Assembly: GCA_017475605.1 (NCBI GenBank)
Contig: JAFVFD010000005.1
Location: forward strand, 75,833 to 139,832
Direction of reading: 5' to 3'
DNA: 64,000 nucleotides
Source: Alphaproteobacteria bacterium
GTDB lineage: Bacteria; Pseudomonadota; Alphaproteobacteria; Rs-D84
A program made the position numbers and the translations under genes. Below, piece by piece: positions 13,941-37,408 of this stretch (positions are counted from its first letter, which is position 1; each line of letters opens with the position of its first letter). A model generated the notes under the pieces. The model ran no database searches, was not told where the DNA came from, and saw only the letters and a list, made by a program, of their open reading frames with translations.

Positions 13941-14741
13941 TTAATAACATTTAGAACGAGAACCCAAAACAACGGTCGTTGTTGTACGGCACGCGTTTTG
14001 ATACAGACGTTTCTTTTTCTGTGGTTCTGTTGTGTTCACATTATTATCATGGCCGTTAACATTACCATTTGCGTTAACAACACCATTTGCATTAACAATC
14101 ACATTACCATTGTTATCGCCAGTGATAACAACTGTTTGTGTTGGTGTGTGTGCATTTGTACGAACAACAACAGTATCCGGTGTGGCAACAATTTCTGTTT
14201 TCTGTTCCGGACATGGAGTTGGTTTCACCGGTGCCGACTTCGCTGGCTGCGCTGGTTTAACAGGTGCTGGTTTTGCCGGTTTCACAGGCTGTGCTGGTTT
14301 TGCCGGTTTTGCAGGCTTTTTGGCTGGCTTGGCCGGCTTTTTAGCCTGTTTCGCTGGTTTTTCACATTTGCAGCAATCACATTTGTTTTTCGCATCCTTG
14401 CAATCACAACCTGTCTTATTACCTTGGCATGCGCAAGCCTTGGCTTCACGACAAACCGCCAAAGAATCACGCAAATCTGCTATTGTGGAATCACGTACGA
14501 CAATTGTATCGCGCAAAGCGGAATTTTCATCATTCAATTCACTAATGCGCCCATTTGCCGCTTCGACTGCGTTGCTGGCATCTGTCAATGCTGTATTGTT
14601 CTTTGAAACAAGTGTATGCCATTCCTGTGCTTCATCACGTGCAGCACGTTTATCGCTGCACTGTTTAACACCGAAAACAATAGCGATAACCGCAACCGTT
14701 CCCAGTGCGATATTTGCCCAAGTTCTTTTATCCATAGCCAT
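13941..14741 (-). CDS. Membrane-anchored coiled-coil, Cys-rich protein with (PAKPAK)n proline/lysine-rich tandem repeats
   Basis: N-terminal TM WANIALGTVAVIAIVFGV. A coiled-coil segment. Cys cluster CACQGNKTGCDCKDAKNKCDCCKCE. Then KPAKQAKKPAKPAKKPAKPAKPAQPVKPAKPAPVKPAQPAKSAPVKP, encoded by imperfect tandem DNA repeats at about 14235-14345. RBS AAGGGA. Confidence 0.5.
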   Translation of the reverse strand: MAMDKRTWANIALGTVAVIAIVFGVKQCSDKRAARDEAQEWHTLVSKNNTALTDASNAVEAANGRISELNDENSALRDTIVVRDSTIADLRDSLAVCREAKACACQGNKTGCDCKDAKNKCDCCKCEKPAKQAKKPAKPAKKPAKPAKPAQPVKPAKPAPVKPAQPAKSAPVKPTPCPEQKTEIVATPDTVVVRTNAHTPTQTVVITGDNNGNVIVNANGVVNANGNVNGHDNNVNTTEPQKKKRLYQNACRTTTTVVLGSRSKCY

Positions 14742-14773: not shown

Positions 14774-14802
14774 AATATAGACAAAATATTATGTTTTGTC
14801 AA
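14774..14802 (-). promoter_or_regulatory. Putative sigma70 promoter for the 13941-14741 gene
   Basis: Minus-strand TTGACA (revcomp of 14797-14802), 17-nt spacer, TATATT (revcomp of 14774-14779). Confidence 0.45.
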
Positions 14803-14887
14803 GTATAAATTTCATTTTTATTATTTTATCTTGTTTTTCCCTTTGCGCCCCACACCGTTTTTTGATATAATTAGGCATCAGAGAGAA

Positions 14888-15748
14888 ATGATAAAAAAAC
14901 TTGCTTTTGTAATACTATCTTGTGCGCTGGTGCCTGTGGTTGGGCATTCGGCGTGTTCACGCGCGAATTTAACACGTTGTTTGGATTCTGCGTGTGCGGT
15001 TAACATATCGTCAAATCCGGCGGCACGTTGTCAATATTGTGGTACTGCGGATGCCGGCGAACCGAACGACGCGGGGTTGCGTGCCGTATCCGTTGGAACA
15101 TCTGCGAAATACAATATTTCGGCGCGCGATTTGAAAAGCGCCCCAACCGATCCCGGCGAACGCTATGTTTGGGCATCAAAAAAATGTATTTCTATTGTTG
15201 ATGGCTGTACCGCGGACGATGTGTCGGATGTGTACGATAAATTAATTGAACAATCTTGTACCGCCGCGGGAATAAGTGCACAAATGGCCGTACTATTCGA
15301 AAATGCGCGCAAGGTTAAGACAGAATCTGCATGTAAATCTGAAATAACGGCGTGTATGGTTGGCGAAGCAAAATGTACTTCTAAATACAGCGGCTGTGCC
15401 GAAGATGCCGATTTTGATAAATATTTTTCGGAATGTTCCATCGCATCTGTTGGTTGTGATGCGTATTTGTCGGACATCCGTTCAACACTTGCCACCGCAC
15501 GCGATCGCGCAATTAAAAACGCCGAGGAAACACTTTTGGCCATTGTCCAATCGTACAGGGATGCGCGTGCAAAACGTTTGGCTGCAATTACCAAATCGTG
15601 CGATGATAACTCTGCGCGCGACGCGTGTATAACATCTGTATGTAACCGCAGTATGCCGAACAAGTGCGATGCGGCATATCCATCTGAAAAATCTATGGCA
15701 ACACAGTTGTGCAAGTTTTATGACATAGCGTGTTCGACATTAAAATAA
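14888..15748 (+). CDS. Secreted cysteine-rich protein, C-x6-C module family, paralog 1
   Basis: Signal peptide MIKKLAFVILSCALVPVVGHSA. Repeated modules ACSRANLTRCLDSAC, CKSEITACMVGEAKCTSKYSGC, CSIASVGC, CDDNSARDACITSVCNRSMPNKC. The tool ORF start at 14831 precedes the signal peptide and is unlikely. Confidence 0.55.
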   Translation: MIKKLAFVILSCALVPVVGHSACSRANLTRCLDSACAVNISSNPAARCQYCGTADAGEPNDAGLRAVSVGTSAKYNISARDLKSAPTDPGERYVWASKKCISIVDGCTADDVSDVYDKLIEQSCTAAGISAQMAVLFENARKVKTESACKSEITACMVGEAKCTSKYSGCAEDADFDKYFSECSIASVGCDAYLSDIRSTLATARDRAIKNAEETLLAIVQSYRDARAKRLAAITKSCDDNSARDACITSVCNRSMPNKCDAAYPSEKSMATQLCKFYDIACSTLK

Positions 15749-15755
15749 ACGGAAT

Positions 15756-17792
15756 ATGTTGAAAATGAATACGAACAGAACCGGAATCTTTGGCAGAAAA
15801 ATTTGTAGTGTGGCCTTTATTATTTTGGCGGTCGTTGCCGATGCGTCGGCTGCAAATGTGGTCCAGCGAAATACGGTATCTTCAACAAATCGGGTTTCGG
15901 CCACACGTCCATCCGCCGCGGCATCTCGTATGCCAACAATGATGGTTAATGTTGGCGCAACATCACAAAGCACAACACCGGCAGTATCGGACACACCCGC
16001 CACGACAACAACGAAAACCACAACTACAAACACCCCGGAACCAACACCAAACATTGAAAACAAATCATCACAATTTGGTACGGGCCTTACATCTAAATCA
16101 GAAACCCAGATTGACACCGCGGCAACAAACCTGGCTGAATTGGTCCGCGCACAACGTGCTGCACTGGATGCGGCGGATGCGACCGCGGCAATAACTGCGG
16201 CGGCACAAACCGTTACAATCAACGGGGAAAACTCCTGTGATACCGCGTTGCGTGAATGTATGATTGGCAAATGTGGTTCTAATTTTGCAAAATGCGTTTC
16301 CGATACAGATACTACATTTTTCGATAAAATGGACACATGCCGTCGCACAACGAATTGTACCGGCCATGAATATCAATTGTTTTCCGTTGAAATCAAGGCC
16401 GATCGTGATTTAAACGCAATGCTGGCAAATTATAACGCGACAATCGATTGCGGTAATAATTACGATTCTTGTATTATCGCACAGTGTGGGGCTAATTATT
16501 CCAAATGTATTGGTAAAAGTGCCGGCGACACCGCAATTGCAAAATGCGAATCAATCGCGAAATCATGTATTGAACGCGATTCCGGTTTGGCAATGCGAAC
16601 AATGGGTGTATTTGGCGAACTACGCCAGGATGCCGAACGCCAGATAGCAACCGACGAACAAAAATTGTATGCCCTGCGGGATAGAATGCGCACCCTTTGT
16701 ACGCGTTTGGGTGCAATGTTTGACGAACGCAGTTTGGATTGTGTTTATACGGTTAATTTTTATGCTGGCAAGGACAACACGCTTTTCGCATCCAAAAAAT
16801 TATATGCTGGTTCAACATTTGATTGCACACAAAATTGGTTCGGTATTGATGTAACAACATACCGCGAAAACGCACTCCGCGAAACACGCGCACAAACCGC
16901 GGCATCATCTGCGATGCTGGGGTCCGGTCTGGGCCAGGCCGTTGGTGCATTCACATCGGGCGCAATTGGTCGTGCCGTTGACCGGTTCCGCGCCGACAAT
17001 GCCCTGGAAGATAAAATCAATGAATGTATGGAAACCCACAACATGACGGAATCAGAATGTCGCGCCAAGATTAGTCCATCATCTGAAAAAACGGACAAGA
17101 CGGGAAATGCCAGCGAAACATTAAAGGCCGCCAAAGCACAATTTGATGATATTAAGAACAAGTTGGGTACAGACGGTGAAGGAAGTTTTTCAACGGGCAC
17201 TGTTTCATCTGCGGCCACAGCGGCAGCCGGTGCTGCAACATCCCAAGAAGATGGTTCGACTAAAGAAGAAGTTGTTGAAGAACAACCTGAAGACGAAGAG
17301 GTTTCAATGTCCACCCCAGATAATATAGACAAACCAGTAATCGACAAGAAACAAACAGATGACGTGTATGATGTTAATTTGCCAACCTCTTTATCAACTG
17401 AACCAATAGCTATCATCAACGGAAAACTTAAGGTAAATGTTGACAATAAGTACGCAGATGCCATTAGAAACTTTGTGAAAGACGAACGCTGGAAAGGTTC
17501 TGAAAAGAAACCACAGATATATAAAAATGTCCCCAACCAAACAATAGAGATAAGTTTATATAATAAGGCCTGGACTATAAACAAAGACTTGCATGACAAA
17601 TGGTTGAAAACTACAAAAGTCGATTCAAACAATTATCCTAATGATGAAATGTTTTCAGTTTGTTCAACACTAGAAAGCCAGTATTGTAATGGTTTAGACA
17701 ACTGTGGCATAAGTTATGTCGGTCGTCATAGTGGCACAGAAGCCAACTATTACTATGGTTGCTACATCTCTGTGCCATACAGCGAACAATAA
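15756..17792 (+). CDS. Secreted cysteine-rich protein, C-x6-C module family, paralog 2, with a compositionally distinct C-terminal domain
   Basis: Signal peptide; Thr-rich linker. Perfect C-x6-C-x4-C-x6-C modules (CDTALRECMIGKCGSNFAKC and CGNNYDSCIIAQCGANYSKC), plus CESIAKSC. Acidic linker. The last ~165 aa (17290-17792) are visibly more A/T-rich. Confidence 0.6.
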   Translation: MLKMNTNRTGIFGRKICSVAFIILAVVADASAANVVQRNTVSSTNRVSATRPSAAASRMPTMMVNVGATSQSTTPAVSDTPATTTTKTTTTNTPEPTPNIENKSSQFGTGLTSKSETQIDTAATNLAELVRAQRAALDAADATAAITAAAQTVTINGENSCDTALRECMIGKCGSNFAKCVSDTDTTFFDKMDTCRRTTNCTGHEYQLFSVEIKADRDLNAMLANYNATIDCGNNYDSCIIAQCGANYSKCIGKSAGDTAIAKCESIAKSCIERDSGLAMRTMGVFGELRQDAERQIATDEQKLYALRDRMRTLCTRLGAMFDERSLDCVYTVNFYAGKDNTLFASKKLYAGSTFDCTQNWFGIDVTTYRENALRETRAQTAASSAMLGSGLGQAVGAFTSGAIGRAVDRFRADNALEDKINECMETHNMTESECRAKISPSSEKTDKTGNASETLKAAKAQFDDIKNKLGTDGEGSFSTGTVSSAATAAAGAATSQEDGSTKEEVVEEQPEDEEVSMSTPDNIDKPVIDKKQTDDVYDVNLPTSLSTEPIAIINGKLKVNVDNKYADAIRNFVKDERWKGSEKKPQIYKNVPNQTIEISLYNKAWTINKDLHDKWLKTTKVDSNNYPNDEMFSVCSTLESQYCNGLDNCGISYVGRHSGTEANYYYGCYISVPYSEQ

Positions 17793-17820
17793 AGTAAACG
17801 AATAAGAATTACAAAAGACA

Positions 17821-20800
17821 ATGAAAAAATTATTGATTGCTTTTTTATTTATCGTATCTGTAATACCGGCGGCATTTTCCGCACAGTCTGATGTGTATTC
17901 ATGTGGTATTGCGTCATCCGCTTCTGCACCGAATATAGTTCCCGCAGACAATTGTATTCCCCAGGATATTTTACGGGACTATCGTGTTATCAAGGGAACC
18001 GTTGTCAAGGCAAAAACAGATTCCAGGGAAAAGGTCGAACTTGTTTCCATACGTTTTACCCCGAAAGATAAATCTCAATCAAAAGAATTAATGTTCATCG
18101 CCAGCCCACATTTCGCATTTTATATCAAGAAAGGTATAGATGGTGATATTTCTTTTACTGCCGATGGATATCAAACACTTATATTACACCCACGTGATTT
18201 TGATGAAACCATGGGACGTTATGTTGAAATGGTACCCCAAAGTGCAGCCCCAACCACTACAGCACATGCTGTTGAAAGTCCAACAACACCAACATCTACC
18301 CCTGAAGCAAATAAAGCTGCAACCAGCACAACGCGCACACGTGCATCTACGCGTTCAGGTTCTACGCCACCAACAAATGGCGGTTCTGCCACTACCGCAA
18401 CAGTACATAAAAAAATTAACGGCAAGATTATCGAAGGTGACACAAAATTACCCGCTATTGGCGCATACGTTACCCCACGTGGTGTCAAATCGTCCCCGTC
18501 TAATTCGGGTATAGCCGATGAAACAGGTGCTTTTCATATTGAAATGTTCCCTGCAAACACCGACGCAGAGGTGTCGTATATGGGGTACACAACAAGAATA
18601 GTTTCCGCATCACAAATGAATGATGGGATGAATATTACACTTCAGCCATCTACAGAAACTTTGGACAAGGCGGTCCTTTCCATTGTTGATTGTGGCAAAG
18701 AAAAGCGTGCAGAATTACACGCACTTACAGCCGAAGTATTAAACAACACAACGTGTATTCCAACATCTTGTGAAAATGGTTATATTTTGGAAAAACCTAA
18801 AAACATTGATGCAAAATGTACATCTTGTACAGGTCGTGTTCCCCTGGCCCGCACAGTAACAGTTGAAAACAACCAATGTGTTCCTGACAGATGCGAAACA
18901 AACCTGGTACGCGTTGGCAATCAATGCTTGGTCGATTGTGATAAATTCAAATCTAAATTAAATGCCAAGACGGTAACACGAAAGACCCCCGGGCCAACAA
19001 CTATTGCCCCAAACAATGACTATTCTTCATTTTGTAACATAGAAAGTTGTATAAACCATTCTTTCAAAAAAATTGATAATCAGTGTGTCTTACAAACAGA
19101 CAAAGAATGTGATGATGTCGCCAAAAACATTAAATATGCATCGCCAAAAGGTAAATATATATACGATCGCAAGACCGATACTCTTATCTGCATTCCGGAC
19201 TCTTGTACAGCAACGGGATATGTTGTTAATAAGACTACTGGTCAATGCGAATTAAAAGATAACAATTGCCCTGCTGAAATCTTGGAAAAGATGGATCCAA
19301 ATGCATCGGCGGGCAGTATAAAAGAACGTGACCCCATCACAGGTGTTGCCAAAACATGCGAAATTACAGGGTGTAATAATTCCATGACCCCTAATTCCAA
19401 CGGCACCAAATGCGTCAATTCGCAATGTGGCTGCGGTCAAACTTGGGATTCAACAAAAGATGAATGTGTGTCAAAAACCGAAAGAACATGCAGTGTAAAA
19501 AATGTAAAACACGCAAAGCCGTCTGGAAAATTACAATGCCAAAACACAACAAGCATGGCATTGTCTGACGCATGCGACAAGAATACTAGTTGTAAAGAAA
19601 TCTGTGCTGTTACAGAATGTGAAGACGATTACAAATTAAACCAACAAAACAATTCTTGTGATGTTCCAACCGGTGAATGCGATTTTACTGGCGACAAACA
19701 ATTCGCCAAAGACAAAGGTATTTGGAAAGAAAAATCAGGTGTGTTGGTTTGTGAACCCATCTGTAATGGCACAAACTATGAACTTGACTGGAACCCCCAA
19801 GAAAAGAAGTATAACGGTTGCAAAGTTAAATATTGTCCATGTGGTTCAATCTTGGATGACTCGACAAAGTCTTGTAAAACATGGGCCGAACTTGGTAAAT
19901 CTAACTGCGACCCGATGCCGACTGGCGCAACAGCGGCCACCCGCAGTTGTCGCGATAATTCCAGTGGTGTCGAAACCACCAACTGTGCCGACGGTACATG
20001 TACAGAATTCTGTAAGATAACCGCGTGTGATACGGCCGCCGGATATATATTAAAGGATGGCACATGTGAATCTCAGGTTGGCAAACCATGTACCGCCGAG
20101 CAATTGCCAGAAAACGCGGTGGCGGGAACACAACGCGAAAACAATGGCAAGATAGAATGTGTTATCAGCAAATGCGCCAACGGATTTGAGGTTCGCCCTG
20201 ATGAATTGTCCTGTGCACCCAAAATGGTATTAAGTCCGGAACAATACCAAGATGAAATCGCCGAACTGGCCGACAACGCACAAAAAATGCATGAACGTGA
20301 AACATCGTTGGAAAATCGTATATTGGGCGCGGCGGGAATTGGCGCAACGGGTATTGGTGGTACAATGATTGGCGGCGCATTGGCCGAACGTCGTGCGGAC
20401 GATGATGCGGAACGCGCAATGCGTGCATATCTGGAAACATTCCATTGCGATTATGGTAATGGTACGAATGTAAAGGGTGGCGAAACAAATGTCGAATTAC
20501 CGGGCGGTAACGATATGATTGGCCTTTACACCGAATACGCACAACTTGCCAATGATTTAAAGATTCGCAAGGAAGCCCTGGGCCTTCGTCCCGGCATTGA
20601 ATCCGAGGTTGTTATTGACAAGGCCGAAACAGGTTTATACGAATACAGCAATAACGGTATTACCGGTGGAACGTACGCATCTATCGCACGTGCCCTGCTG
20701 AACCCAGACGGCGAAGATGCAAAGATGTGGGCCGCGCAACGCGCCGCCACCGACAGCAAATTAAAAACAGGTGCAATTGTCGCCGGTGTTGGTACGGTGG

Positions 20801-21810
20801 GTTCCCTGGTCGGCAACATCGCAATCAATCATGGCAAGGGAAATAATGCAAAAGAGATTATAGCAAGATATGAAAAATTACGCGCACCACTTGCCGTGGC
20901 CGCTGAACATGCCAACACACCGTATACCCCGGGTGATAATTCGCTTGATTGTTCTAGATTTACCGGAACCACAGGTGTTGGTAAATCACCAAACTGCGTA
21001 TGCGCAGACCCAACAAACACAAGATTTAACTATGACCGTGGTGGTTGTGTTCCATGCGAAAGCAACAAGGTATATAATCAAAACGACGAATGTGTGTGCC
21101 CAAGTGCAACACCACGTTGGAACGATGCGACAAATCGTTGCGAGTCAGAACCAACCGTTTGTCCATTGGCAAATAAATTAAAACACGCCACAAAATGTGA
21201 ATGTGTTGAAAACGCAAGTGCGCCAGACGGCAAAAATTGCCAATGCAAAACAGACGAAGGTTTCGAAGAAAAAGACGGTCAATGCGTTCAGAAAGAAGTA
21301 CCACCAGAACACGAATCTGGATCAGAAATTGGAAAATTCTCGTTCTCGGCAGATGCCCTTTTCGCGTCAAGTCGCTGGGAAATCAAATCTGACAAGCTTA
21401 CTCAACTGCGCAGCGATTTGGCAAATGCAAAACAAACTGCGACAACCGAAAAAATTGATTTGAACGCGGACGATTATTGTGTCGTCGTCGTTGGAAAAAC
21501 CGACCGCACACAATATCCTAAAAACAGTTCTATGAACAATACAAAACTGTCTTTGTATCGCGCAAATGCCATCAAAAACGAATTAAAAACTGTATTCAAA
21601 GAATCTAATATACTTACCTATGGCATCGCAGCGAAAGACTGTCCGAAAACAAAATATCCCAGGGCAAATACCGCCGATTGCCGTCGTGTAGATGTTACTT
21701 GGTTGGCAGGATCATGCGAAGACAATAAAAATAATACAACAAATTGGATTAGCAATGTCGCAGAAGCAACAGATGCTATATCAGAATTACAGAGTTTATT
21801 AAAAAAATAA
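17821..21810 (+). CDS. Large secreted multidomain protein: CarboxypepD_reg-like domain, EGF-like Cys-rich repeats, glycine zipper, OmpA-like C-terminal domain
   Basis: Signal peptide MKKLLIAFLFIVSVIPAAFSA. Pro/Thr-rich linker. KINGKIIEGDTKLPAIGAYVTPRGVKSS...GAFHIEMFPANTDAEVSYMGYTTRIV resembles the carboxypeptidase-regulatory-like domain. Over 60 Cys in C...C..C repeats. Gly-zipper ILGAAGIGATGIGGTMIGGALA. The C-terminus FSFSADALF...VVVGKTDRTQYPKNSSMNNTKLSLYRANAIKNEL...CRRVDV fits the OmpA C-terminal domain pattern. Confidence 0.6.
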   Translation: MKKLLIAFLFIVSVIPAAFSAQSDVYSCGIASSASAPNIVPADNCIPQDILRDYRVIKGTVVKAKTDSREKVELVSIRFTPKDKSQSKELMFIASPHFAFYIKKGIDGDISFTADGYQTLILHPRDFDETMGRYVEMVPQSAAPTTTAHAVESPTTPTSTPEANKAATSTTRTRASTRSGSTPPTNGGSATTATVHKKINGKIIEGDTKLPAIGAYVTPRGVKSSPSNSGIADETGAFHIEMFPANTDAEVSYMGYTTRIVSASQMNDGMNITLQPSTETLDKAVLSIVDCGKEKRAELHALTAEVLNNTTCIPTSCENGYILEKPKNIDAKCTSCTGRVPLARTVTVENNQCVPDRCETNLVRVGNQCLVDCDKFKSKLNAKTVTRKTPGPTTIAPNNDYSSFCNIESCINHSFKKIDNQCVLQTDKECDDVAKNIKYASPKGKYIYDRKTDTLICIPDSCTATGYVVNKTTGQCELKDNNCPAEILEKMDPNASAGSIKERDPITGVAKTCEITGCNNSMTPNSNGTKCVNSQCGCGQTWDSTKDECVSKTERTCSVKNVKHAKPSGKLQCQNTTSMALSDACDKNTSCKEICAVTECEDDYKLNQQNNSCDVPTGECDFTGDKQFAKDKGIWKEKSGVLVCEPICNGTNYELDWNPQEKKYNGCKVKYCPCGSILDDSTKSCKTWAELGKSNCDPMPTGATAATRSCRDNSSGVETTNCADGTCTEFCKITACDTAAGYILKDGTCESQVGKPCTAEQLPENAVAGTQRENNGKIECVISKCANGFEVRPDELSCAPKMVLSPEQYQDEIAELADNAQKMHERETSLENRILGAAGIGATGIGGTMIGGALAERRADDDAERAMRAYLETFHCDYGNGTNVKGGETNVELPGGNDMIGLYTEYAQLANDLKIRKEALGLRPGIESEVVIDKAETGLYEYSNNGITGGTYASIARALLNPDGEDAKMWAAQRAATDSKLKTGAIVAGVGTVGSLVGNIAINHGKGNNAKEIIARYEKLRAPLAVAAEHANTPYTPGDNSLDCSRFTGTTGVGKSPNCVCADPTNTRFNYDRGGCVPCESNKVYNQNDECVCPSATPRWNDATNRCESEPTVCPLANKLKHATKCECVENASAPDGKNCQCKTDEGFEEKDGQCVQKEVPPEHESGSEIGKFSFSADALFASSRWEIKSDKLTQLRSDLANAKQTATTEKIDLNADDYCVVVVGKTDRTQYPKNSSMNNTKLSLYRANAIKNELKTVFKESNILTYGIAAKDCPKTKYPRANTADCRRVDVTWLAGSCEDNKNNTTNWISNVAEATDAISELQSLLKK

Positions 21811-21828
21811 TATGATTGTTATTTGATA

Positions 21829-21857
21829 CCCCCGCCCATTTGGGCGGGGGTATTTTA
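21829..21857. terminator. Bidirectional rho-independent terminator
   Basis: CCCCCGCCC-ATTT-GGGCGGGGG followed by TATTTTAT, between the convergent genes ending at 21810 (+) and 21855 (-). Confidence 0.6.
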
Positions 21858-22610
21858 TGGGTTGTAATAACAACTGCTTGTAAATTGAAAATTACCAATA
21901 TTATCGTGCAGTGTATAGTTCCCTGGTATATAACACTCATTTATGGCAGAGGCCCCTGCCCCTATTGTTGTTCCAACCGCTGCATCAGTGCCACTTGTTC
22001 CAGCATAAAATGTTGAAGATATCGGACATCGACTGCAAGAATTATTATTTAAATAATATCCTTGTACACACACAAAATTCGGCCCACCTGGACAACCAGC
22101 ATTATCAGGACACGCATTACACCGCGGGTCGTCCATTGAACTGGCTATTCCGTAATACCCAGATGCACATCTAAACTCTACTATTGTATTACATGTGCCA
22201 CAAATACATGTTTTTCTTTGTCTCATTTGAATGTGATACGAATTAGCCGGTGTCCAGTCTGAATCGGAACAATTTGTACAAGATGCCGAAGGGCACCCGC
22301 AGGTTTTATAAATATTCGTTGACGAATATTCACATCCATCATCTGTATAAGTTACATCCGTTAACACTTGACCTGTATTACATGATGTGCAACTTTGTAC
22401 AGGACGAAAAGCCACGCTACCACTGCCATCGTAATTTGGATTAACAATAAAGTATATTGTTTCCGATGTTTTACAATTACTGCCAGTTATTATTGTTGAA
22501 AGTACATAAGAAGAATCGGGCCTGGTTTTTGTATTTGTACATGTTTGTCCATAAGCGTTAGTAAGTGTAACAAATATTATACTAGATGTGATTAAACAGT
22601 TCCTCTTCAT
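21855..22610 (-). CDS. Secreted cysteine-rich protein with eukaryote-like furin/EGF-type Cys repeats (C..GYY..C..CP)
   Basis: Signal peptide MKRNCLITSSIIFVTLTNAYG. 30 Cys in 230 aa. Motifs CASGYYGIASSMDDPRCNACPDNAGCPGGPNFVCVQGYYLNNNSCSRCP. Confidence 0.5.
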   Translation of the reverse strand: MKRNCLITSSIIFVTLTNAYGQTCTNTKTRPDSSYVLSTIITGSNCKTSETIYFIVNPNYDGSGSVAFRPVQSCTSCNTGQVLTDVTYTDDGCEYSSTNIYKTCGCPSASCTNCSDSDWTPANSYHIQMRQRKTCICGTCNTIVEFRCASGYYGIASSMDDPRCNACPDNAGCPGGPNFVCVQGYYLNNNSCSRCPISSTFYAGTSGTDAAVGTTIGAGASAINECYIPGNYTLHDNIGNFQFTSSCYYNP

Positions 22611-22647
22611 TGTGTTTCCCCTTCCCTTTGTGTTTCCAAGCGACCGA

Positions 22648-22760
22648 TTTAAAACGGTGGTTTTGATTCGGCTATTTTTGCCGTTGACAAAGTCCCGGAA
22701 AACCGAATAAAATAGGAATAATTAAGAGGCCGATTTTAAACCACCGTTTTAAATCGGCAA
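22648..22760. repeat. About 110-bp palindromic (MITE-like) element with an embedded promoter-like and terminator-like arrangement
   Basis: 20-bp inverted repeat CGACCGATTTAAAACGGTGGTTT (22650-22672) pairs with AAACCACCGTTTTAAATCGG (22738-22757). Inner TTGACA-17-ATAAAA (22685-22713) on the + strand is followed by hairpin GCCGATTT...AAATCGGC and a T-run. Confidence 0.35.
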
Positions 22761-22914
22761 CTTTTATTTTATGCAACACATTGTGTTTACGGCATAATCC
22801 GCCGATTTTTTGTTTTTAATTTTTTGTGTTTTTTCTTTGTCATTGCAAGCCTGCGAAGCAATCCACAAACCCGTTAGATTGCCACGGTCGCTATGCTCCA
22901 TCGCAATGACAAAC

Positions 22915-22995
22915 ACCACTACCCCGGCTCGTTTCACTCGCCACCCCTTAGCATGCGAAGGGGAATTACTGAACTCTGCCCCCCATCGCCCCACC
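22915..22995. repeat. Palindromic dispersed repeat element, copy 2 (homologous to 7353-7470)
   Basis: CTACCCCGG (22919-22927) and CGCCACCCCTTAGCATGCGAAGGGGAATTA (22939-22967) align with copy 1. It is preceded by the inverted repeat TGTCATTGC (22839-22847) / GCAATGACA (22905-22913). Confidence 0.45.
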
Positions 22996-23032
22996 ATATT
23001 ATGTTGACAGGAAACACGACATTGCTTGTACT

Positions 23033-23062
23033 AAAAAACCGCCCGTATGGGCGGTTTTTATC
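23033..23062 (-). terminator. Rho-independent terminator for the autotransporter gene
   Basis: AACCGCCC-GTAT-GGGCGGTT hairpin with flanking A-run and T-run. The gene's stop is at 23070. Confidence 0.6.
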
Positions 23063-23069
23063 AAGAACA

Positions 23070-26000
23070 TTAGAATCTGTACGACCCAGACAATCTGAAC
23101 TTGTGGAACTGAATATCGTTGTTATATTGATAACGATAATCAAGACCCATTTGGAATCCCTTGGCCGACAACAATTCCACACCACCACCAATATTTGCCC
23201 ACAATGGATCAATATCTACACTGTACTTGCTGTAAGTTTTCGCCGGACCAAACTTAAAGTTAATTGAATCTGGAACCCCCAGGACATCATATTCGATTCC
23301 CGCCGATGCATATGGACGAACCTGGAACCAGGATGTTGGGTATATACGTTTTTGTACAATCAACGAATAGCCCGGTGTGAATATCAGATAACCATCCGAA
23401 TCCATTTGCATATAATCGGAACCTGCGGCCTTTTCTTTGACCGAGAAGCCAAAGTTATATCCAACACGCGCATACGCGTTACCGACCAGATATTGATTCA
23501 ACCAATCATGTAACAGGCCCCATTCGGAAATCAAACTAAATGCCGTACCGGAACCACTTATGCTTGAAACATAGTTCTGTTCACGCGAAATATCCAGCAA
23601 GTGTAAATCAAAGAACCCGTTTCCATACAGACGTGTTTTCGTACCCAAAATCTTCATCATGTATGCACCCAAACCAATATTCGTGTCTGCAACATCAAAA
23701 CTGACGCGGCCATTGATGGTTTCATTTGGTCTGTAACTTAAATCTATTGTATCAGCATCATCAGATGACATGTGCGAAACATGGCCAACAAATCCCAAAA
23801 GTAATGTTGAAGAATGTTGCCAATCATAACCGCCCATTATGCTGAATCTGTCGCCGTTCGCATGTTTTCCATCATCTGTATTTTGATAGAATAAACCATA
23901 GTCAACATCAACCCATGCTTTTTTCAAACTGCGATGACGATTCCAAATAAATTCATCCAACATGTGATCTTCGAAATCGCGGAATGTGGTATGTTCATTT
24001 AACACAACATCGCCCGCAACCAATTCTGCTTCACGTGGCTGGACCAGGCGACTAAACCGCGCCAATGCTGTACCATCCGGATTCAACACATATTGTTCCA
24101 TACGGTTGTACAATTCATTTGCCAATTCTTCTAAATTAGTTCCGGCAAATGCTACTGGTATCGCCTCGATTGGTGTAGTGTTATTAAACTTCTTATCCTT
24201 TAACCCACCCGCAATCATTTCGTCCAATGCGCCGGCGGCATCATGTTCACCATCGGTATGATTATCTACACGATCCACAATTGGTTGAATTTTGAAGACT
24301 TCAACCGGACCACCAAAGCGGGAATCAAACACGATATAGATACTGTCGGTTACACCATCTTCGTCTATATCACGCACCGTCAGATATGCCGGTAATTGTG
24401 TTTGCGTTTGGTTCGCGTTTGCATTTTCAGCAATAGAATTGTCGAAATACTTGAAACACAAACTGCCATCGGCATTACAGAAATTGACATTCAGGTTACG
24501 AATCTTGTTTGCCAATTCATCCAAGCCTTCACTGCTGGCGGAATGTAACAACCAAATGGCGGTACCACTGTCCACCATATCGAATATATCAATTCCGATT
24601 TGTGGCGCGACCAATTCATCGCCCGACAATTCAGAACCAACATTCGTTGCCTTGTTGATAAAACGACCCGCAACAGAAATCAATGGTGCCGCATTACCAT
24701 CTGTGGCATTTGTGATTTGACCCAATGTATTATCATCAGCCAATGATACCGTCGACCAATAATTGTATGTTGTTGAATTAATTTCCACACCCGGATATCC
24801 TAAAATCGCGGCATGTATCATGCTGTTATTATCAAATGTATAATTACCGCCAACATCCATGTGTTCAAGGCCAACAAATTGTACCCCGCCAGAAACATTA
24901 CCACCCACATCAACATCCAGCCAGTTATTTGCTGGATCCGCCTGGATACGCAAATTGGTTGCATCAATATTATTCGTAATCGCAACATCACTGCTTTTAA
25001 TCGTCATTGAACCAGATTCCTGTTTGATTCCCTTGACGGTTAAATTAGATGTTGTTAATACATGATTGTCGGACATTATGTTAACATCGCCCGTTCCCAA
25101 CCCAGATGTATAATTTTGACGCAACATTCCACCAATCGTAAACGCATTACCCAATGTCAAGGTATTTGCGGTTATTGTTGCCGTCCCAGTGTTATTTTTG
25201 AACGATGCGGCATTAACGGCACCTGATGTTGTCTTTAATGACAAAGTACCAGTATTTTCCACAACCCCCAATGACAAATCATCAGTTGTATTCAATGTCA
25301 ACGTGCCCGCGTTTTTGGTCTTTGCGTTGTTCCCCGTTATCGCGACAGATTCCGCATTGATTATTGCCGTACCCGCTGCAACAACATCAATACCATTTGC
25401 AAATGTCGCATTATTTGTAATGTTATAAGTTACTGTATTGGCATTAACCAACAATGCACCACCTGAAACATTCAAATTATCTGCCTTCAATGTGCCGCCA
25501 TTATTCAAGACCAACACACCACCGGTTGTGCCACCCTGGCTCATATCGCCATTGGATACAGATATATCGCCATCAACATCTATCGCCCCAGATGCCAACT
25601 TGGTTGTTCCGCCCGACAATGTCATACTATCTGAATTAACAGATGCACCCGACAAAGTAACATCGCCCCCCGATACAACCACAGAATCTATGCCCAGCGC
25701 ATTTGTTGCCGCCACCGTCGTTGTCCCGGCCGATGAATCCAACCCGGACATTGTTATGGCCTTGGCATTTATATCCAATGTACCTTTGTTCGTTACAGTA
25801 CCCGTATTAACCGAATCGGTGGTGTTCGTGGTTCCCAATGAAACCGTACCAGATGTCCCATTGTTAATCGCCGCTGTTTTAACGGTTGTACCGGTTGCCG
25901 TAACCGTACCACCATTTGTTGTTGTTATTGCATCATTAAACTTAACCACATTAGATGCAGTAACATTTAACACACCATTCGCTGTATCTGCCACAATTGC

Positions 26001-29639: not shown

Positions 29640-29651
29640 ATATACAACAAA

Positions 29652-34064: not shown

Positions 34065-36161
34065 TTATTCACATGCACCATACGATGCGGCAACGGTCGC
34101 ATTTTCGATACACACACTGCCCGATACCGCGCATGCGGAGCGAACCAAAGTGATTGTACCATCAATGCTTGATTTGTAATTCAGGGCCGCGGCCTTACAC
34201 TGATTCAAATCAGTATATTCCGCACATGACAATTTCCAAGACTTACAATCAACCGCGGTTGCTGTTGGGCTAACCGTATCTGGCAAACGCAGATTCCATT
34301 TCACATAAAAATCTTTCAATGTGCCAATCGAATGTGATTTACCAAAACCAACCGTATTCAAACCATCACCAACACGACAGTTAATATTGTTGCGTTCAAC
34401 AAATGCGGTAATAGCGGTCGCCAAACCACCGGTTCCCGCACCAATCGCCGCGCCGGTTGCAATACTCTTGCCCATATTAGACTTTTCGCCATTCAACACA
34501 TCAAGGCCACCGAACACACCATCTAATTCGGCAATTTCAACCTCGGTTTCATCCTTGTTAACACAGCCGATACCCAGGTTTGTACATTTCAAACCACCTG
34601 CCAAATTGTCCGGATTGCGTAATGACTTGAAACGGCAACCAACTGTATCTTTGGCACACGAAGATGCCTCAACATTCAAATCACCAGATTCAATCGAACC
34701 AACCGAAACCAAGTAATCTATACAAGGTTTAGTATCCAATTTCCCGGCACCCGCACACGTTGTTGCCAGCAAGTTATCAATACAGGCTATTTTAGCACCA
34801 TCATCTTCACAACCCGCTGGTAATTCATATCCATTCGGATCAAACGAATCATTATAGACAAATGTACAATTCAACACATCATTACCAAAGCAACGGCTAA
34901 TATCTTGCTTTACGGTTTGATAGTTTGTGTACAAATCGACAATCGCACGACATTGACGCGCCGTCAAATCATTCGTTGTGATTTTATCGCCTTCGGGTAA
35001 ATATCTGTTAAGAGAATAGATATTCACACTTTTACGCAATTGGTCGCTTAATGTTTTGACCGCAGATTTATTATCGCAATCAAATGCGCGTTTGCCATGG
35101 CCCGCCAATGCACCAATTCCGGCACCGGCCAATGTTCCGCCACCAATACCCACAACCGCGGCAGTGCTTGTATCGTTCATCAACGAAAAACCGAACAAAT
35201 CTTTGTTACAAGTGAATGTATCGCCGGCGGCACGCCAAACCTCGGCTGGCTGGTCATTGCCCAGTGCACCGAACAACCAGTTGTTTTTGATTTGAGTGTC
35301 TTTGTTATATGCGGCCACGCGCAGATAGCAGGTTGCAGTTGTTGCATCCCAACGCGCATAGTGTCCACGCGCCCCATCAACACCCGGGTTGCCATAATTT
35401 AATTCTGCGCCCATCGGATTAGTCTTGATTAACACCCCGCCCTGTTGATTATTATAGGCACCAACGCGGTTATTATATTCACTTGTTGTACCACCATTGT
35501 TTTCGACGGCTGCAAACGATGGCCCATATGTATTCACATCCAACAACAGACATGTGTTTTCAGCCTGGTTTGGTGTCAAACCCGTTTTGCGCAAAACAAA
35601 GTTGTAATATTCCGGCTGAATCTTGCGCGAATTAAAGTCAACCCAAACATCTGCGATTGCGCGATATACAGGCTTGCAATCACGACGAACATCCGTCATA
35701 CATTTTTCCACCTGAATCGAGCAAAGCCCCATGCCATTCATAATCGCATTACGCATATCTTCGTTGAACAAATCATTCAAACCACCCGGCAAGGCACCGT
35801 TATTTATACACGCCAAAACATCGTTCATACAGTTTTGAACAGTATATTCAGAATTACGCACACCACCATCTGGACATTCCGGGGTTGGTTGTGGATCTGG
35901 CTGTGGATCATCTGGTTTTGGGTCCGGCTGTGGTTGTGGTTGTGGTTGCGGTTGTTGTGCAACATTTGTTGATATATTTGCCGGATTAATTGTCATTGTC
36001 GGCATAGACGGCATACGAAACGATTGTGCACCCGCACGATTACCCGCACGAACATTTGCCGCCGCACGCGGTGTTGCATCCGCCGCAAATGCCGCACAAA
36101 CAAAGGATATTACACCGAAACAGGCAACCAGGCCGCCGAATAATTTTGATGATTTTGTCAT
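34065..36161 (-). CDS. Secreted cysteine-rich protein, C-x6-C module family, paralog 3, with two glycine-zipper segments
   Basis: Signal peptide MTKSSKLFGGLVACFGVISFVCAAFAADA, RBS GGGGGA. (PQ)n low-complexity encoded by the tandem DNA repeat 35885-35960. Modules CMNDVLAC, CSIQVEKCMTDVRRDC, CAKDTVGC, CKSWKLSC, CAVSGSVC. Gly-zippers VVGIGGGTLAGAGIGALAG and IATGAAIGAGTGGLATAI. Confidence 0.55.
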   Translation of the reverse strand: MTKSSKLFGGLVACFGVISFVCAAFAADATPRAAANVRAGNRAGAQSFRMPSMPTMTINPANISTNVAQQPQPQPQPQPDPKPDDPQPDPQPTPECPDGGVRNSEYTVQNCMNDVLACINNGALPGGLNDLFNEDMRNAIMNGMGLCSIQVEKCMTDVRRDCKPVYRAIADVWVDFNSRKIQPEYYNFVLRKTGLTPNQAENTCLLLDVNTYGPSFAAVENNGGTTSEYNNRVGAYNNQQGGVLIKTNPMGAELNYGNPGVDGARGHYARWDATTATCYLRVAAYNKDTQIKNNWLFGALGNDQPAEVWRAAGDTFTCNKDLFGFSLMNDTSTAAVVGIGGGTLAGAGIGALAGHGKRAFDCDNKSAVKTLSDQLRKSVNIYSLNRYLPEGDKITTNDLTARQCRAIVDLYTNYQTVKQDISRCFGNDVLNCTFVYNDSFDPNGYELPAGCEDDGAKIACIDNLLATTCAGAGKLDTKPCIDYLVSVGSIESGDLNVEASSCAKDTVGCRFKSLRNPDNLAGGLKCTNLGIGCVNKDETEVEIAELDGVFGGLDVLNGEKSNMGKSIATGAAIGAGTGGLATAITAFVERNNINCRVGDGLNTVGFGKSHSIGTLKDFYVKWNLRLPDTVSPTATAVDCKSWKLSCAEYTDLNQCKAAALNYKSSIDGTITLVRSACAVSGSVCIENATVAASYGACE

Positions 36162-36280: not shown

Positions 36281-37381
36281 TTGTCTATAATAGAATTGAT
36301 GTGGAATAAAGTACAAGATTTTTATAACAATAACAAACATGCGATTATTTGGACCGCATGCTATATCTTTGCGTCATGGGCCATTATGCGCTATATGTTT
36401 AATTTCAATATCTTTTCCGCAACCCGTTGGCACCAACTGTTTCATTCGCATCTGTATGGCTTTGCGGGTTTCGTATTCAGTATTTTGATTTTGGCGATGG
36501 TGCCACTTTACATTGCAACGACCGTTATTATCGCACGAACCAAAACGCCACTTTTTAATATAAACATAACAATACCTGAATTTATCAAGACTTTTATTAA
36601 GAACGCATTTATTCAAACACCAATGCCGGACGAAGAACCACTTGCCACCACAGTTCAGGAAAACGAATCGGGACAAGAAAACCCAACCGAACAAACACCA
36701 GGCAACGAAAATACGGAAACACCGACCGAAACCACATCGCCCAACCCCGTACCAGACACCGTCCCGGCGGAATTACGCGTTGCATATATGCGCGCCCGCG
36801 ACAATGTTTTACACACACAGAAATCTGTATTTGACCTTGCTAATACCACCCGGACACCCGCCCCGGCACCAATCGCCGAACCGGCAAGTGCGGATGCCAC
36901 CCCAATGGAAGATTTTTCTATTCCAACAGATTTTGATATTACCGACACAGACAGCATTATGGGGAACGTGCCAACATTTACCGATATTGACCTGGATGCC
37001 GATATTGATGACGATACCGATGAACAAACACCCGAAATTACAGACATAAAAACCCAAAACAATGAAAACCAAGATGTAATAAACTATCTGAACAAAAAAT
37101 CTGTTCCATGTGAAATTATTGACGACATTGTTGTAACTGACAAATTCGCAATTGCATCGCACACAGATTCTGATTTCTGGGTTGCGGACAATGAATCATG
37201 GTTTGCCGCCGGAAAAATAAGAAAATCACCAATTGTATCTGTGTTAAATGTTGCAAAGCAACGCAACGTCCAACCGGTGTTATATTTGACATACGATAAC
37301 ATAATGGACATTGATGAATTGCGTACTGGGTGGCAAGATGCCGGCATTCGTGTGATAAACAACTTGGACGAATTAAAATAA
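36281..37381 (+). CDS. Membrane protein with acidic disordered linker (hypothetical)
   Basis: Two N-terminal TM helices; strongly acidic Thr/Pro/Asp/Glu-rich middle; a C-terminal globular region with no recognisable family. Confidence 0.45.
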   Translation: MSIIELMWNKVQDFYNNNKHAIIWTACYIFASWAIMRYMFNFNIFSATRWHQLFHSHLYGFAGFVFSILILAMVPLYIATTVIIARTKTPLFNINITIPEFIKTFIKNAFIQTPMPDEEPLATTVQENESGQENPTEQTPGNENTETPTETTSPNPVPDTVPAELRVAYMRARDNVLHTQKSVFDLANTTRTPAPAPIAEPASADATPMEDFSIPTDFDITDTDSIMGNVPTFTDIDLDADIDDDTDEQTPEITDIKTQNNENQDVINYLNKKSVPCEIIDDIVVTDKFAIASHTDSDFWVADNESWFAAGKIRKSPIVSVLNVAKQRNVQPVLYLTYDNIMDIDELRTGWQDAGIRVINNLDELK

Positions 37382-37408
37382 AAAACCGCCCGTTTGGGCG
37401 GTTTTTAT
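37381..37408. terminator. Bidirectional rho-independent terminator
   Basis: AACCGCCC-GTTT-GGGCGGTT with flanking A-run and T-run. Confidence 0.6.

What the first reader, a model, noticed from the sequence alone, without database searches (positions are those of the whole stretch)
14888..22610. Cluster of paralogous secreted cysteine-rich proteins built from recurring C-x6-C(-x4/6-C-x6-C) modules; apparently an undescribed family
Three consecutive plus-strand genes (14888-15748, 15756-17792, 17821-21810) all carry signal peptides and many cysteines, and so do the genes at 34065-36161 and 37408-40368. The spacing C-x6-C recurs at least 20 times across them, often as C-x6-C-x4-C-x6-C. Examples are CDTALRECMIGKCGSNFAKC, CGNNYDSCIIAQCGANYSKC, CQNKYYGCMDAFC, CTIEFKKCMQTTGGCGNDFAAC and CTKEVKSCLQSEDRCGSDYTQC. 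The shared module, signal peptides and physical clustering point to a lineage-specific expanded family of disulfide-rich envelope or secreted proteins. I do not recognise a named domain for this module.
Basis: seen in the sequence. Interest (0 to 1): 0.7.

Follow-up and report, generated by a model that had tools for sequence, protein, structure and literature searches.

The report
Undescribed disulfide-hairpin envelope protein family
A reduced-genome gut alphaproteobacterium (Candidatus Enterousia group) carries a conserved gene cluster of secreted, helical proteins built around a previously undescribed six-cysteine hairpin unit that is most likely locked by three nested disulfide bonds; its function is unknown, and an envelope scaffold is the best guess.

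Summary
The C-x6-C motif is real. A, B, E and F have 6, 5, 6 and 11 such gaps against about 1 expected. Gene C (3, chance level) and gene D (0) lack it.

HMMs built from one family find the others. E carries only simpler twin C-x6-C pairs.

All conserved cysteines are invariant across orthologues. In divergent relatives they disappear in pairs (C434+C450, C506+C532, C952+C981, C422+C468). This points to structural disulfides in a nested ladder rather than metal sites.

Pfam, NCBIfam, PDB sequence searches and fold searches give no significant match. Public records call the proteins hypothetical.

The host is a Candidatus Enterousia-like bacterium (order Rs-D84, genomes about 1 Mb, no respiratory chain). 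The genes F, J/E, C-B-A and G form a cluster that is syntenic across many species, and relatives carry tandem F paralogues.

Function is inferred only. I favour a disulfide-stabilised envelope scaffold, partly membrane-anchored and tied to peptidoglycan through C. The family is undescribed, but C and D are not members.

The parts
13941..14741 (-). G: N-terminally membrane-anchored protein with a coiled coil, a dense Cys cluster and PAKPAK-type proline-rich repeats. It is transcribed divergently from A and is a fast-evolving cluster member.
   Evidence: ORF. A single hydrophobic segment at aa 7-25. Found next to A in relatives. Median identity about 30%. No Pfam or NCBIfam hit.
14774..14824 (.). 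G/A intergenic region with back-to-back sigma-70-like promoter matches: TTGACA-17-TATATT on the minus strand and TTGTCA-17-TATTAT on the plus strand.
   Evidence: These are consensus matches only: 28 sites were found in the scanned region against 21.4 expected.
14888..15748 (+). A: secreted 286-aa all-helical protein with 20 invariant mature Cys and one six-Cys unit.
   Evidence: The AlphaFold2 (AF2) model is all-alpha with pLDDT 78.
15332..15457 (+). Six-Cys hairpin unit of A (aa 149-190): CKSEITACMVGEAKCTSKYSGCAEDADFDKYFSECSIASVGC.
15756..17792 (+). B: secreted 678-aa protein. It has a Thr/Pro/Ala-rich N-terminal spacer, two six-Cys units, a domain shared with E (aa 320-399), a glycine-zipper segment (aa 385-405) and a C-terminal half that varies between species.
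   Evidence: The 7-nt gap to A and 28-nt gap to C suggest an A-B-C operon.
16236..16358 (+). Six-Cys unit 1 of B (aa 161-201).
16449..16568 (+). Six-Cys unit 2 of B (aa 232-271). C232 and C271 are both replaced in the same orthologue, L071.
17821..21810 (+). C: 1329-aa secreted cluster member WITHOUT the C-x6-C module. It has a CarboxypepD_reg-like domain (aa 199-285), 8 copies of C-x4-C-x2-GY...C, 6 copies of CxC...C, two Gly/Ala-rich hydrophobic segments and an OmpA-like C-terminal region.
21337..21732 (+). OmpA-like (peptidoglycan-binding type) C-terminal region of C, aa 1173-1304.
   Evidence: TIGR03350 matches at 1.1e-7 and PF00691 at 0.027, both below their curated cut-offs. JGI names a fragment in the same 90% cluster 'OmpA-like peptidoglycan-associated protein'.
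34065..36161 (-). E: secreted 698-aa protein with a QP/DP-rich spacer, six C-x6-C pairs arranged as twin pairs, and two glycine-zipper segments (aa 334-352 and 566-585). It shares one domain with B but has no four- or six-Cys module.
   Evidence: The annotated start gives 698 aa.
35700..35831 (-). Twin C-x6-C pair 1 of E (C111/C118 and C147/C154).
   Evidence: Position sums are 111+154 = 118+147 = 265.
34110..34247 (-). Twin C-x6-C pair 2 of E (C639/C646 and C677/C684).
   Evidence: Position sums are 1323 and 1323.
36281..37381 (+). J: membrane protein with an acidic linker and an unassigned C-terminal domain. It is always divergent from E in relatives.
   Evidence: Present in 52 of 77 loci, with no family match.
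37408..40368 (-). F: secreted 986-aa protein. The true start is probably the ATG at 40362, giving 984 aa as in the NCBI record. It has 38 invariant Cys, two six-Cys units inside an internal duplication, long helices, a small beta region, a Gly/Ala-rich hydrophobic stretch and a Cys-containing C-terminal beta domain ending in TQF.
39205..39435 (-). Six-Cys unit 1 of F (aa 312-388), with a 47-aa insert between C4 and C5.
38965..39105 (-). Twin C-x6-C of F (C422/C429 and C461/C468), enclosing the dispensable pair C434-C450.
   Evidence: Co-loss of C422+C468 and of C434+C450.
38749..38874 (-). Six-Cys unit 2 of F (aa 499-540). C506 and C532 are lost together in 6 divergent relatives.
37639..37821 (-). 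Gly/Ala/Val-rich hydrophobic stretch of F (aa 850-910). It is a candidate membrane hairpin or glycine-zipper anchor. Its composition is conserved but its sequence and length are not.
   Evidence: The segment aa 859-909 has pLDDT below 50.

Best explanation
SHOWN
- A, B and F, and more loosely E, belong to an undescribed family of Sec-exported, mainly alpha-helical proteins. The family is specific to Candidatus Enterousia-like gut Alphaproteobacteria (order Rs-D84).
- The recurring unit is a helical hairpin of about 40 residues with six invariant cysteines: C1-x6-C2-x4/6-C3-x6-C4-x11-14-C5-x5-7-C6. One copy carries a 47-aa insert between C4 and C5.
- The consensus of the front part is C-x6-CM-x2-4-CG-x-D-[FY]-x2-C.

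INFERRED FROM PAIRED LOSS OF CYSTEINES AND FROM POSITION ARITHMETIC
- The cysteines form three nested disulfides: C1-C6, C2-C5 and C3-C4.
- The two cysteines of a C-x6-C lie one heptad apart on the same face of a helix. Each bonds to a partner on the antiparallel element.
- This follows the same logic as mitochondrial twin-CX9C/CX3C hairpins, with an extra disulfide closing the loop. E and parts of F use the simpler two-disulfide 'twin C-x6-C' version.

INFERRED, WEAKER
- The proteins act together as a disulfide-stabilised structural assembly of the cell envelope.
- A would be the soluble component. B, E, F and C would be anchored through Gly/Ala-rich (glycine-zipper-like) hydrophobic segments. 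C would be tied to peptidoglycan by its OmpA-like end.
- Genes F, J/E, C-B-A and G would be inherited as one functional cluster.
For: The motif is not chance:
- Cysteines are invariant in orthologues.

The module is homologous across families:
- An HMM built from A-orthologue copies ranks F (7.7e-7) and B (2.7e-6) next among all window ORFs. An HMM built from F copies finds B (2.6e-8) and A (1.2e-4).
- hhalign gives A-B 76%, B-F 64% and A-F 51-59% over about 100 colinear columns, with nine Cys aligned.
- F's internal repeat scores 92%.
- An HMM built from the five window copies alone finds the module in 161 ORFs of 77 related loci. The pattern there is A once, B twice, F and F-paralogues twice, and nothing else among 2627 ORFs.

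Disulfides and their topology, from 150 F-family representatives under 50% identity:
- C434+C450 are both replaced in 10 and never singly.
- C952+C981: both lost in 6, singly in 0 and 0.
- C506+C532 (C2+C5): both lost in 6, singly in 1 and 0.
- C422+C468: both lost in 6, singly in 0 and 4.
- C232+C271 (C1+C6) of B are both lost in one orthologue.
- Position sums of proposed partners are equal in every copy, for example 149+190 = 156+183 = 339 in A and 232+271 = 239+264 = 503 in B.
- Conserved mature Cys counts are even: A 20, F 38.
- AF2 places C1 and C2 within one helix, C3 and C4 in the following loop, and C5 and C6 in or at the next helix.

Envelope role:
- Sec signal peptides.
- Gly/Ala-rich hydrophobic segments in B, C, E and F.
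- OmpA-like end of C.
- Long rod-like helices whose only fold matches are coiled-coil, spectrin or syntaxin-type bundles.
- No enzymatic domain in any member.
- The cluster is syntenic across many species next to rplQ.
- F relatives occur in 380 GTDB species stretches and in 884 clusters at 50% identity.
- A, B, E and F evolve at one common, moderate rate. Identity is about 53% where L17 is 83%.
Against: - No atomic coordinates were available, so S-S distances in the models could not be checked.
- Only C2-C5, one case of C1-C6 and several non-module pairs have co-loss support. C3-C4 is assigned by elimination.
- hhalign probabilities between families are moderate (51-76%), and aligned cysteines inflate such scores.
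- AF2 confidence is moderate (pLDDT 78 and 66.5, pTM about 0.4).
- The lineage is reported to lack respiratory chains (PMC12306168), so the usual quinone-dependent DsbB route for periplasmic disulfides may be missing. I could not check for Dsb or VKOR genes.
- The OmpA-like and CarboxypepD_reg hits in C are below the curated cut-offs.
- Nothing tested here shows that the proteins interact, where they sit, or that the hydrophobic segments are membrane-embedded.
Confidence: 0.55

Rival explanations
1. The proteins are surface adhesins or contact proteins used to attach to a host cell or partner microbe. The disulfide hairpins would only provide protease- and shear-resistant stalks, and the variable parts would do the binding.
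For: - Rs-D84 bacteria are proposed to be partner-dependent and to carry many unexplained membrane proteins (PMC12306168).
- The window is rich in adhesin-type genes: a YadA-anchor autotransporter with a Chlam_PMP repeat, and two further giant autotransporter-like ORFs.
- B's C-terminal half and C's repeat region vary between species.
- F paralogues are amplified in tandem in relatives.
Against: - A, E, F and the N-terminal half of B are uniformly conserved with invariant Cys.
- The adhesin genes are not part of the cluster in other genomes.
- An OmpA-like peptidoglycan-binding end and internal hydrophobic hairpins argue for a periplasmic or membrane location for at least C.
- No beta-barrel or known surface-export domain was found in A, B, E or F.
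Confidence: 0.22
2. The cysteines bind metal ions (for example Cu(I) or Zn storage, or redox buffering) along helices, as in cysteine-lined copper storage bundles, and do not form disulfides.
For: - C-x6-C puts thiols on one helix face at heptad spacing.
- The organism is a gut anaerobe reported to lack respiratory chains, which makes oxidative folding less obvious.
Against: - Cysteines are lost strictly in specific pairs, not singly or as whole clusters.
- Conserved Cys counts are even.
- No His, Met or Asp partner pattern is conserved around the cysteines.
- Export is by Sec-type signal peptides.
- There is no similarity to known metal-storage families.
Confidence: 0.08
3. The proteins are secreted toxins, effectors or antimicrobial proteins whose disulfides give extracellular stability.
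For: - They have a signal peptide, are disulfide-rich and have no known domain.
Against: - The proteins are large (up to 986 aa), syntenic next to core genes, and found across 380 species stretches.
- They show no immunity-gene pattern.
- Hydrophobic anchor segments are present.
Confidence: 0.05
4. The C-x6-C recurrence is a composition or chance effect in cysteine-rich sequences, with no common origin.
For: - Gene C reaches 3 C-x6-C by chance alone.
- Cysteine columns inflate profile scores.
Against: - Shuffle tests.
- The sharp peak at gap 6.
- Invariance across orthologues.
- Conserved non-Cys positions: CM, CG-x-D-[FY].
- Cross-family HMM hits.
- Conserved copy number per protein in 77 loci.
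Confidence: 0.01

Closest known systems
Twin-CX9C (CHCH domain) and twin-CX3C (small Tim) proteins of the mitochondrial intermembrane space
   Same: Two antiparallel helical elements each carry two cysteines at a fixed spacing. These are paired in a nested way (outer-outer, inner-inner) to lock a hairpin. The compartment is the counterpart of the alphaproteobacterial periplasm. (The description of CHCH and Tim proteins is my own knowledge. The nested pairing here rests.)
   Different: - Spacing is 6, not 9 or 3.
- Full units have a third, loop-closing pair (CG-x-D-[FY]-x2-C).
- Units are embedded, up to several per chain, in proteins of 286-986 aa with Sec signal peptides.
- There is no Pfam CHCH hit and no sequence similarity.
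- I claim analogy only, not homology.
Helicobacter cysteine-rich proteins (Hcp, Sel1-like repeat proteins)
   Same: Secreted, all-alpha repeat proteins in which regularly spaced cysteine pairs staple helix-turn-helix units. They come from a host-associated bacterium. (Own knowledge.)
   Different: - No Sel1/SLR match in Pfam.
- Here the two cysteines of a C-x6-C bond to distal partners rather than to each other, at least for C422, C506 and C232.
- The repeat length and consensus differ.
Chlamydial cysteine-rich outer-membrane complex (OmcA/OmcB/MOMP) alongside Pmp autotransporters
   Same: A reduced-genome, dependent bacterium that combines PMP-repeat autotransporters with several conserved cysteine-rich envelope proteins. 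A disulfide-stabilised envelope is the proposed role in both.
   Different: - There is no sequence or domain similarity.
- The proteins here are helical.
- Intermolecular cross-linking is not shown.
- Peptidoglycan and rod-shape genes are present in this lineage.
YiaD / SlyB / Pcp-type glycine-zipper proteins and OmpA-like peptidoglycan anchors
   Same: Gly/Ala-rich zipper-like hydrophobic segments occur in B, C, E and F. In C such a segment is combined with an OmpA-like C-terminal region, which is the YiaD architecture.
   Different: - All hits are far below the cut-offs (YiaD 13.5 bits against 175).
- There is no lipobox (for A, for the others).
- Large cysteine-rich domains are added.

Membership tests
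Any described protein domain family (Pfam-A 2025, NCBIfam 20.0) | Score at or above the family's curated cut-off on A, B, E or F or on excised sub-domains | tested here: not met
   A has zero hits. The best hits for B, E and F have E >= 0.003 and lie far below the cut-offs, in low-complexity regions.
Any protein with a solved structure | Sequence-profile or fold match | tested here: not met
CHCH / twin-CX9C | Two CX9C motifs on a helix-turn-helix, with a Pfam CHCH match | tested here: not met
   Spacing is x6 throughout and there is no Pfam hit. Only the pairing logic is shared.
Sel1-like repeat / Helicobacter Hcp | Sel1 repeat profile match, with the disulfide inside each repeat's Cys pair | tested here: not met
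   No Sel1 hit. Co-loss indicates distal partners for C-x6-C cysteines.
OmpA family (applies to gene C only) | C-terminal OmpA-like peptidoglycan-binding domain above the cut-off | tested here: inconclusive
   PF00691 scores 15.2 bits against a cut-off of 27.2. TIGR03350 scores 31.9 bits (E 1.1e-7) against 139.8. JGI names a fragment of the same 90% cluster OmpA-like.
Proposed new family (six-Cys C-x6-C hairpin proteins) | Match to the module HMM built from other family members | tested here: met
   A, B (twice) and F (twice) match with domain E-values of 1e-11 to 1e-16, and they also match across families. E scores 0.24. C and D have no hit.
Proposed new family (six-Cys C-x6-C hairpin proteins) | Invariant cysteines at fixed spacing plus a Sec signal peptide | tested here: met
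Proposed new family (six-Cys C-x6-C hairpin proteins) | Nested disulfides C1-C6, C2-C5 and C3-C4 | tested here: inconclusive
   Co-loss supports C2-C5 (six representatives) and C1-C6 (one orthologue). C3-C4 is assigned by elimination. There are no coordinates or chemistry.
Disulfide-dependent exported proteome (DsbA/DsbB- or VKOR-dependent) | Presence of a periplasmic thiol oxidase system in the genome | not testable with these tools
   Only 64 kb of the genome and flanks of 10 kb or less in relatives were readable. No thioredoxin-like gene lies in the conserved cluster. The lineage is reported to lack respiratory chains.

The most novel reading that the evidence does not exclude
The F, J/E, C-B-A and G cluster may encode a new kind of envelope or cell-contact apparatus specific to the Rs-D84 order: a disulfide-laddered helical scaffold. 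It would need dozens of structural disulfides per protein set in an anaerobe reported to lack respiratory chains. That would in turn imply a so far unrecognised route of oxidative protein folding in the periplasm. The twin C-x6-C hairpin would then be a bacterial counterpart of the mitochondrial twin-CXnC design.
Probability: 0.2. Interest if true: 0.75.

Novelty: new variant of a known kind. Interest (0 to 1): 0.5.

Why it matters
- Rs-D84/Enterousia bacteria are widespread in human and animal guts. They have genomes of about 1 Mb with roughly 900 genes and an unexplained, probably partner-dependent lifestyle.
- The cluster (G, A, B, C, E, J, F) takes up about 13.7 kb of coding sequence, more than 1% of such a genome. 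It is among the most conserved of the lineage's unannotated genes, so it probably underlies an important envelope property.
- The six-Cys unit is a clean, testable structural motif. A family model could be deposited in Pfam and would annotate thousands of 'hypothetical proteins'.
- The cluster also raises a concrete question: how does a bacterium reported to lack respiratory chains form so many periplasmic disulfides?

Tried and rejected
1. Pfam and NCBIfam scans of all cluster proteins and of excised sub-domains gave nothing significant. The sub-domains were J's C-terminal part, F's C-terminal beta domain, the B/E shared domain and B's variable end.
3. Including C and D in the family is rejected. 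Their C-x6-C counts are at or below chance, they have no module hit, and their repeat types differ. D resembles Ephrin_rec_like-type repeats only weakly (E 0.02).
4. E as a full family member is only partly supported.
5. The lipoprotein hypothesis for A is rejected. The distance between the AxA site and the first Cys varies, and there is no lipobox.
6. Clustering all ORFs of the 77 loci to find further conserved neighbours, such as Dsb-like genes, yielded only ribosomal and rpoA genes and spurious antisense ORFs.
7. Walking outward from the most divergent listed relative (P0390) stayed within the same synteny and the same unnamed lineage.
8. The exact-sequence look-up of B failed, probably because the annotated start differs.
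9. Literature searches for Enterousia, Rs-D84 and CX6C found no description of these proteins.

Full report
WHAT IS THERE

I label them as follows:
- A: 14888-15748 (+), 286 aa, 21 Cys
- B: 15756-17792 (+), 678 aa, 22 Cys
- C: 17821-21810 (+), 1329 aa, 69 Cys
- D: 21855-22610 (-), 251 aa, 22 Cys
- E: 34065-36161 (-), 698 aa, 30 Cys
- F: 37408-40368 (-), 986 aa, 39 Cys

All quoted peptides are present. Each protein except D has a clearly hydrophobic N-terminal segment. Across 46 orthologues, A shows classical AxA-type Sec signal peptides ending just before an invariant CSRANLTRC, at a variable distance. It is therefore not a lipoprotein.

IS THE SPACING MORE THAN CHANCE?

Gaps of exactly six residues between adjacent cysteines number 6 in A, 5 in B, 6 in E and 11 in F. 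Residue shuffles give means of 0.94, 0.55, 0.97 and 1.17, and at most 1 of 5000 shuffles reaches the observed value. Pooled over these four proteins, 28 of about 100 gaps equal 6, against 4 gaps of 5 and 7 gaps of 7.

C has 3 such gaps, which is the chance expectation (mean 2.6). D has none.

THE UNIT IS LARGER THAN DESCRIBED

The four-Cys form occurs five times: A149, B161, B232, F312 and F499. In every copy two more cysteines follow. The full unit is C1-x6-C2-x4/6-C3-x6-C4-x11-14-C5-x5-7-C6, and F312 carries a 47-aa insert between C4 and C5. Positions other than cysteine are also conserved, giving the consensus C-x6-CM-x2-4-CG-x-D-[FY]-x2-C.

HOMOLOGY BETWEEN THE PROTEINS

Cross-family HMM tests:
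- An HMM built only from the A-orthologue copies ranks F (7.7e-7) and B (2.7e-6) directly after A among all window ORFs of 60 aa or more.
- An HMM built from F copies finds B (2.6e-8) and A (1.2e-4).
- E reaches only 0.24. C and D are not found.

Profile-profile comparisons:
- A-B 76%, B-F 64% and A-F 51-59%, over about 100 colinear columns in which nine cysteines align.
- The two halves of F's Cys-rich region match each other at 92%.
- B and E share a different segment, B320-399 with E269-348, at 70%. It runs into a glycine-zipper stretch.

An HMM built from the five window copies alone finds the module in 161 ORFs of 77 related loci. The copy number there is fixed: A once, B twice, F and F-like paralogues twice. 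Nothing else is hit among 2627 ORFs.

My reading is that A, B and F are paralogous in a region of about 100 residues. E is a looser relative that uses plain twin C-x6-C pairs (C111/118 with C147/154, and C639/646 with C677/684). C carries other cysteine repeats: 8 copies of C-x4-C-x2-GY...C and 6 copies of CxC...C.

DISULFIDES AND THEIR TOPOLOGY (INFERENCE FROM COMPARATIVE DATA)

All 20 mature Cys of A and 38 of F's 39 Cys are invariant in orthologues. Both counts are even.

Among 150 F-family representatives that are under 50% identical to each other, cysteines disappear in specific pairs:
- C434+C450: both replaced in 10, never singly
- C952+C981: both replaced in 6, never singly
- C506+C532: both replaced in 6, singly in 1 and 0
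- C422+C468: both replaced in 6, singly in 0 and 4
- C614+C632: both replaced in 16, singly in 3 and 12

In addition:
- In one B orthologue, C232 and C271 are both replaced.
- C506-C532 is C2-C5 of a unit, and C232-C271 is C1-C6.
- C422-C468 is the outer pair of a twin C-x6-C.
- The position sums of proposed partners are equal in every copy, as expected for an antiparallel ladder. Examples are A 149+190 = 156+183 = 339, B 232+271 = 239+264 = 503, F 422+468 = 429+461 = 890, and E 111+154 = 118+147 = 265.

AlphaFold2 places C1 and C2 in one helix, C3 and C4 in the following loop, and C5 and C6 in or at the next helix (A: pLDDT 78; F: pLDDT 66.5).

I therefore propose a helical hairpin locked by nested disulfides C1-C6 and C2-C5, with a loop disulfide C3-C4.

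IS IT KNOWN?

- Pfam-A and NCBIfam give no significant match for A, B, E, F, G, J or excised sub-domains.
- PDB profile searches return nothing.
- Public records call the proteins hypothetical. The locus tags are IJ866_02360 to IJ866_02430.
- The only domain hints concern C: a CarboxypepD_reg-like domain (3e-5) and an OmpA-like C-terminal region (TIGR03350 at 1e-7). Both are below the curated cut-offs.
- Literature searches found no description of these proteins.

ORGANISM AND DISTRIBUTION

F is 100% identical to a protein of an 'Alphaproteobacteria bacterium' MAG. Related loci come from Candidatus Enterousia and unnamed gut Alphaproteobacteria of humans, ruminants, horses and birds.

This lineage (GTDB order Rs-D84) has genomes of about 0.75-1.0 Mb. 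It is fermentative and lacks the TCA cycle and respiratory chains. It keeps peptidoglycan and rod-shape genes, and it is thought to depend on partners (PMC12306168).

Family sizes:
- F relatives were confirmed in 380 stretches from the GTDB species-representative genome collection.
- F relatives form 884 clusters at 50% identity in a library of 1.84 billion proteins.
- A has 730 relatives.

GENE CLUSTER

In most relatives the order is rplQ, a methyltransferase-like gene, F, J (opposite strand), E, C, B, A, G (opposite strand). There are rearrangements, but the genes stay linked.

In the window the two halves are separated by about 11 kb. That stretch holds D, a 1731-aa autotransporter-like gene, enolase, an OmpA-family lipoprotein, lptC and lptB.

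A-B-C is probably an operon, with gaps of 7 and 28 nt. G and A share a region with back-to-back promoter-like sites.

Evolutionary rates: A, B, E and F show about 53% identity where L17 shows 83%. C and J show about 37% and G about 30%.

Relatives carry extra F-like paralogues. One lineage has four in tandem, each with 37-45 Cys, 10-11 C-x6-C gaps and two modules.

FUNCTION (INFERENCE, MODERATE TO LOW CONFIDENCE)

There is no catalytic domain in any member. Four things point to a disulfide-stabilised structural assembly of the envelope:
- the long helices
- the Gly/Ala-rich zipper-like hydrophobic segments in B, C, E and F
- the OmpA-like end of C
- the uniform conservation

The main rival is a role in adhesion or contact. 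In its favour are the lifestyle, the nearby adhesin genes in the window, the variable parts of B and C, and the paralogue amplification.

Metal binding is disfavoured by the pairwise loss of cysteines. Toxin or effector roles and chance are unlikely.

An open issue is how such a cell oxidises dozens of periplasmic cysteines without a respiratory chain. I could not inspect the rest of the genome for Dsb or VKOR genes.

VERDICT

The motif is real and the family is undescribed. It is better defined as a six-Cys nested-disulfide hairpin present in A, B and F, with E a looser relative and C and D not members. It sits in an order-wide syntenic cluster of unknown function. I rate it of moderate interest (0.5). 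It would be a good candidate for a new family model and for a structural and biochemical test.

Noticed in passing
window 43686-47507: A low-GC stretch (35-38% against about 43%) lies between rpoA and the secY/ribosomal-protein genes. It encodes an alpha/beta-hydrolase, a type I restriction-modification specificity subunit (Methylase_S) and an N6-DNA methylase. It looks like an insertion into the conserved ribosomal super-operon.
   Followed up: partly
window 363-6827, 10445-13825, 23070-28265: There are three giant minus-strand surface-protein genes. The first is a 2154-aa trimeric autotransporter with a YadA anchor and a Chlam_PMP repeat. The second is a 1126-aa protein with an N-terminal ankyrin repeat and an autotransporter-like C-terminus. 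The third is a 1731-aa repeat protein with no Pfam hit. Together they take about 15 kb of a genome of about 1 Mb.
   Followed up: partly
window 21855-22610 (-): D is a 251-aa cysteine-rich protein (22 Cys) of another type, with CxxC...GYY repeats. It is only weakly similar (E 0.02) to an Ephrin_rec_like-domain protein that sits between rpsK and rpoA in a relative (L078 3260-4381). D is found in only 2 of 77 related loci.
   Followed up: partly
window 17821-21810 (+): C contains 8 copies of C-x4-C-x2-G-[YF]...C and 6 copies of C-x-C-x10-14-C. The number of repeats seems to vary between species: only 27 of 69 Cys are conserved in 7 orthologues.
   Followed up: partly
window 13941-14741 (-): G has a very dense Cys cluster (C-x5-C-x-C-x6-C-x-C-x6-C-x-CC-x-C). 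It is followed by about 60 residues of PAKPAK-type repeats, reminiscent of periplasm-spanning proline-rich linkers.
   Followed up: no
window 7550-8644 (+): A choloylglycine (bile-salt) hydrolase family gene (PF02275, 8e-63) is kept in this very small genome.
   Followed up: no
window 22611-34064: In many relatives E is directly followed by C-B-A-G. In this window about 11 kb separates the two halves of the cluster. It holds D, an autotransporter-like gene, enolase, the OmpA lipoprotein H, I, lptC and lptB. Two related loci share the window's arrangement.
   Followed up: partly
L078 6385-19435 (ENA ERZ1667816 scaffold_65): Four tandem F-like paralogues (988, 1106, 857 and 910 aa) lie directly downstream of rplQ. 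Each has two modules about 185 residues apart.
   Followed up: yes
L017 and L031: Contigs carrying clear F orthologues are deposited under 'Bacteroides fragilis' and 'Muribaculaceae' bin names. They are probably mis-binned Rs-D84 contigs in public MAGs.
   Followed up: no
window 40362-40368: The longest ORF of F starts at a TTG (MWMRK...). Orthologues and the NCBI record (984 aa) start at the ATG two codons downstream, where M3 is invariant.
   Followed up: yes
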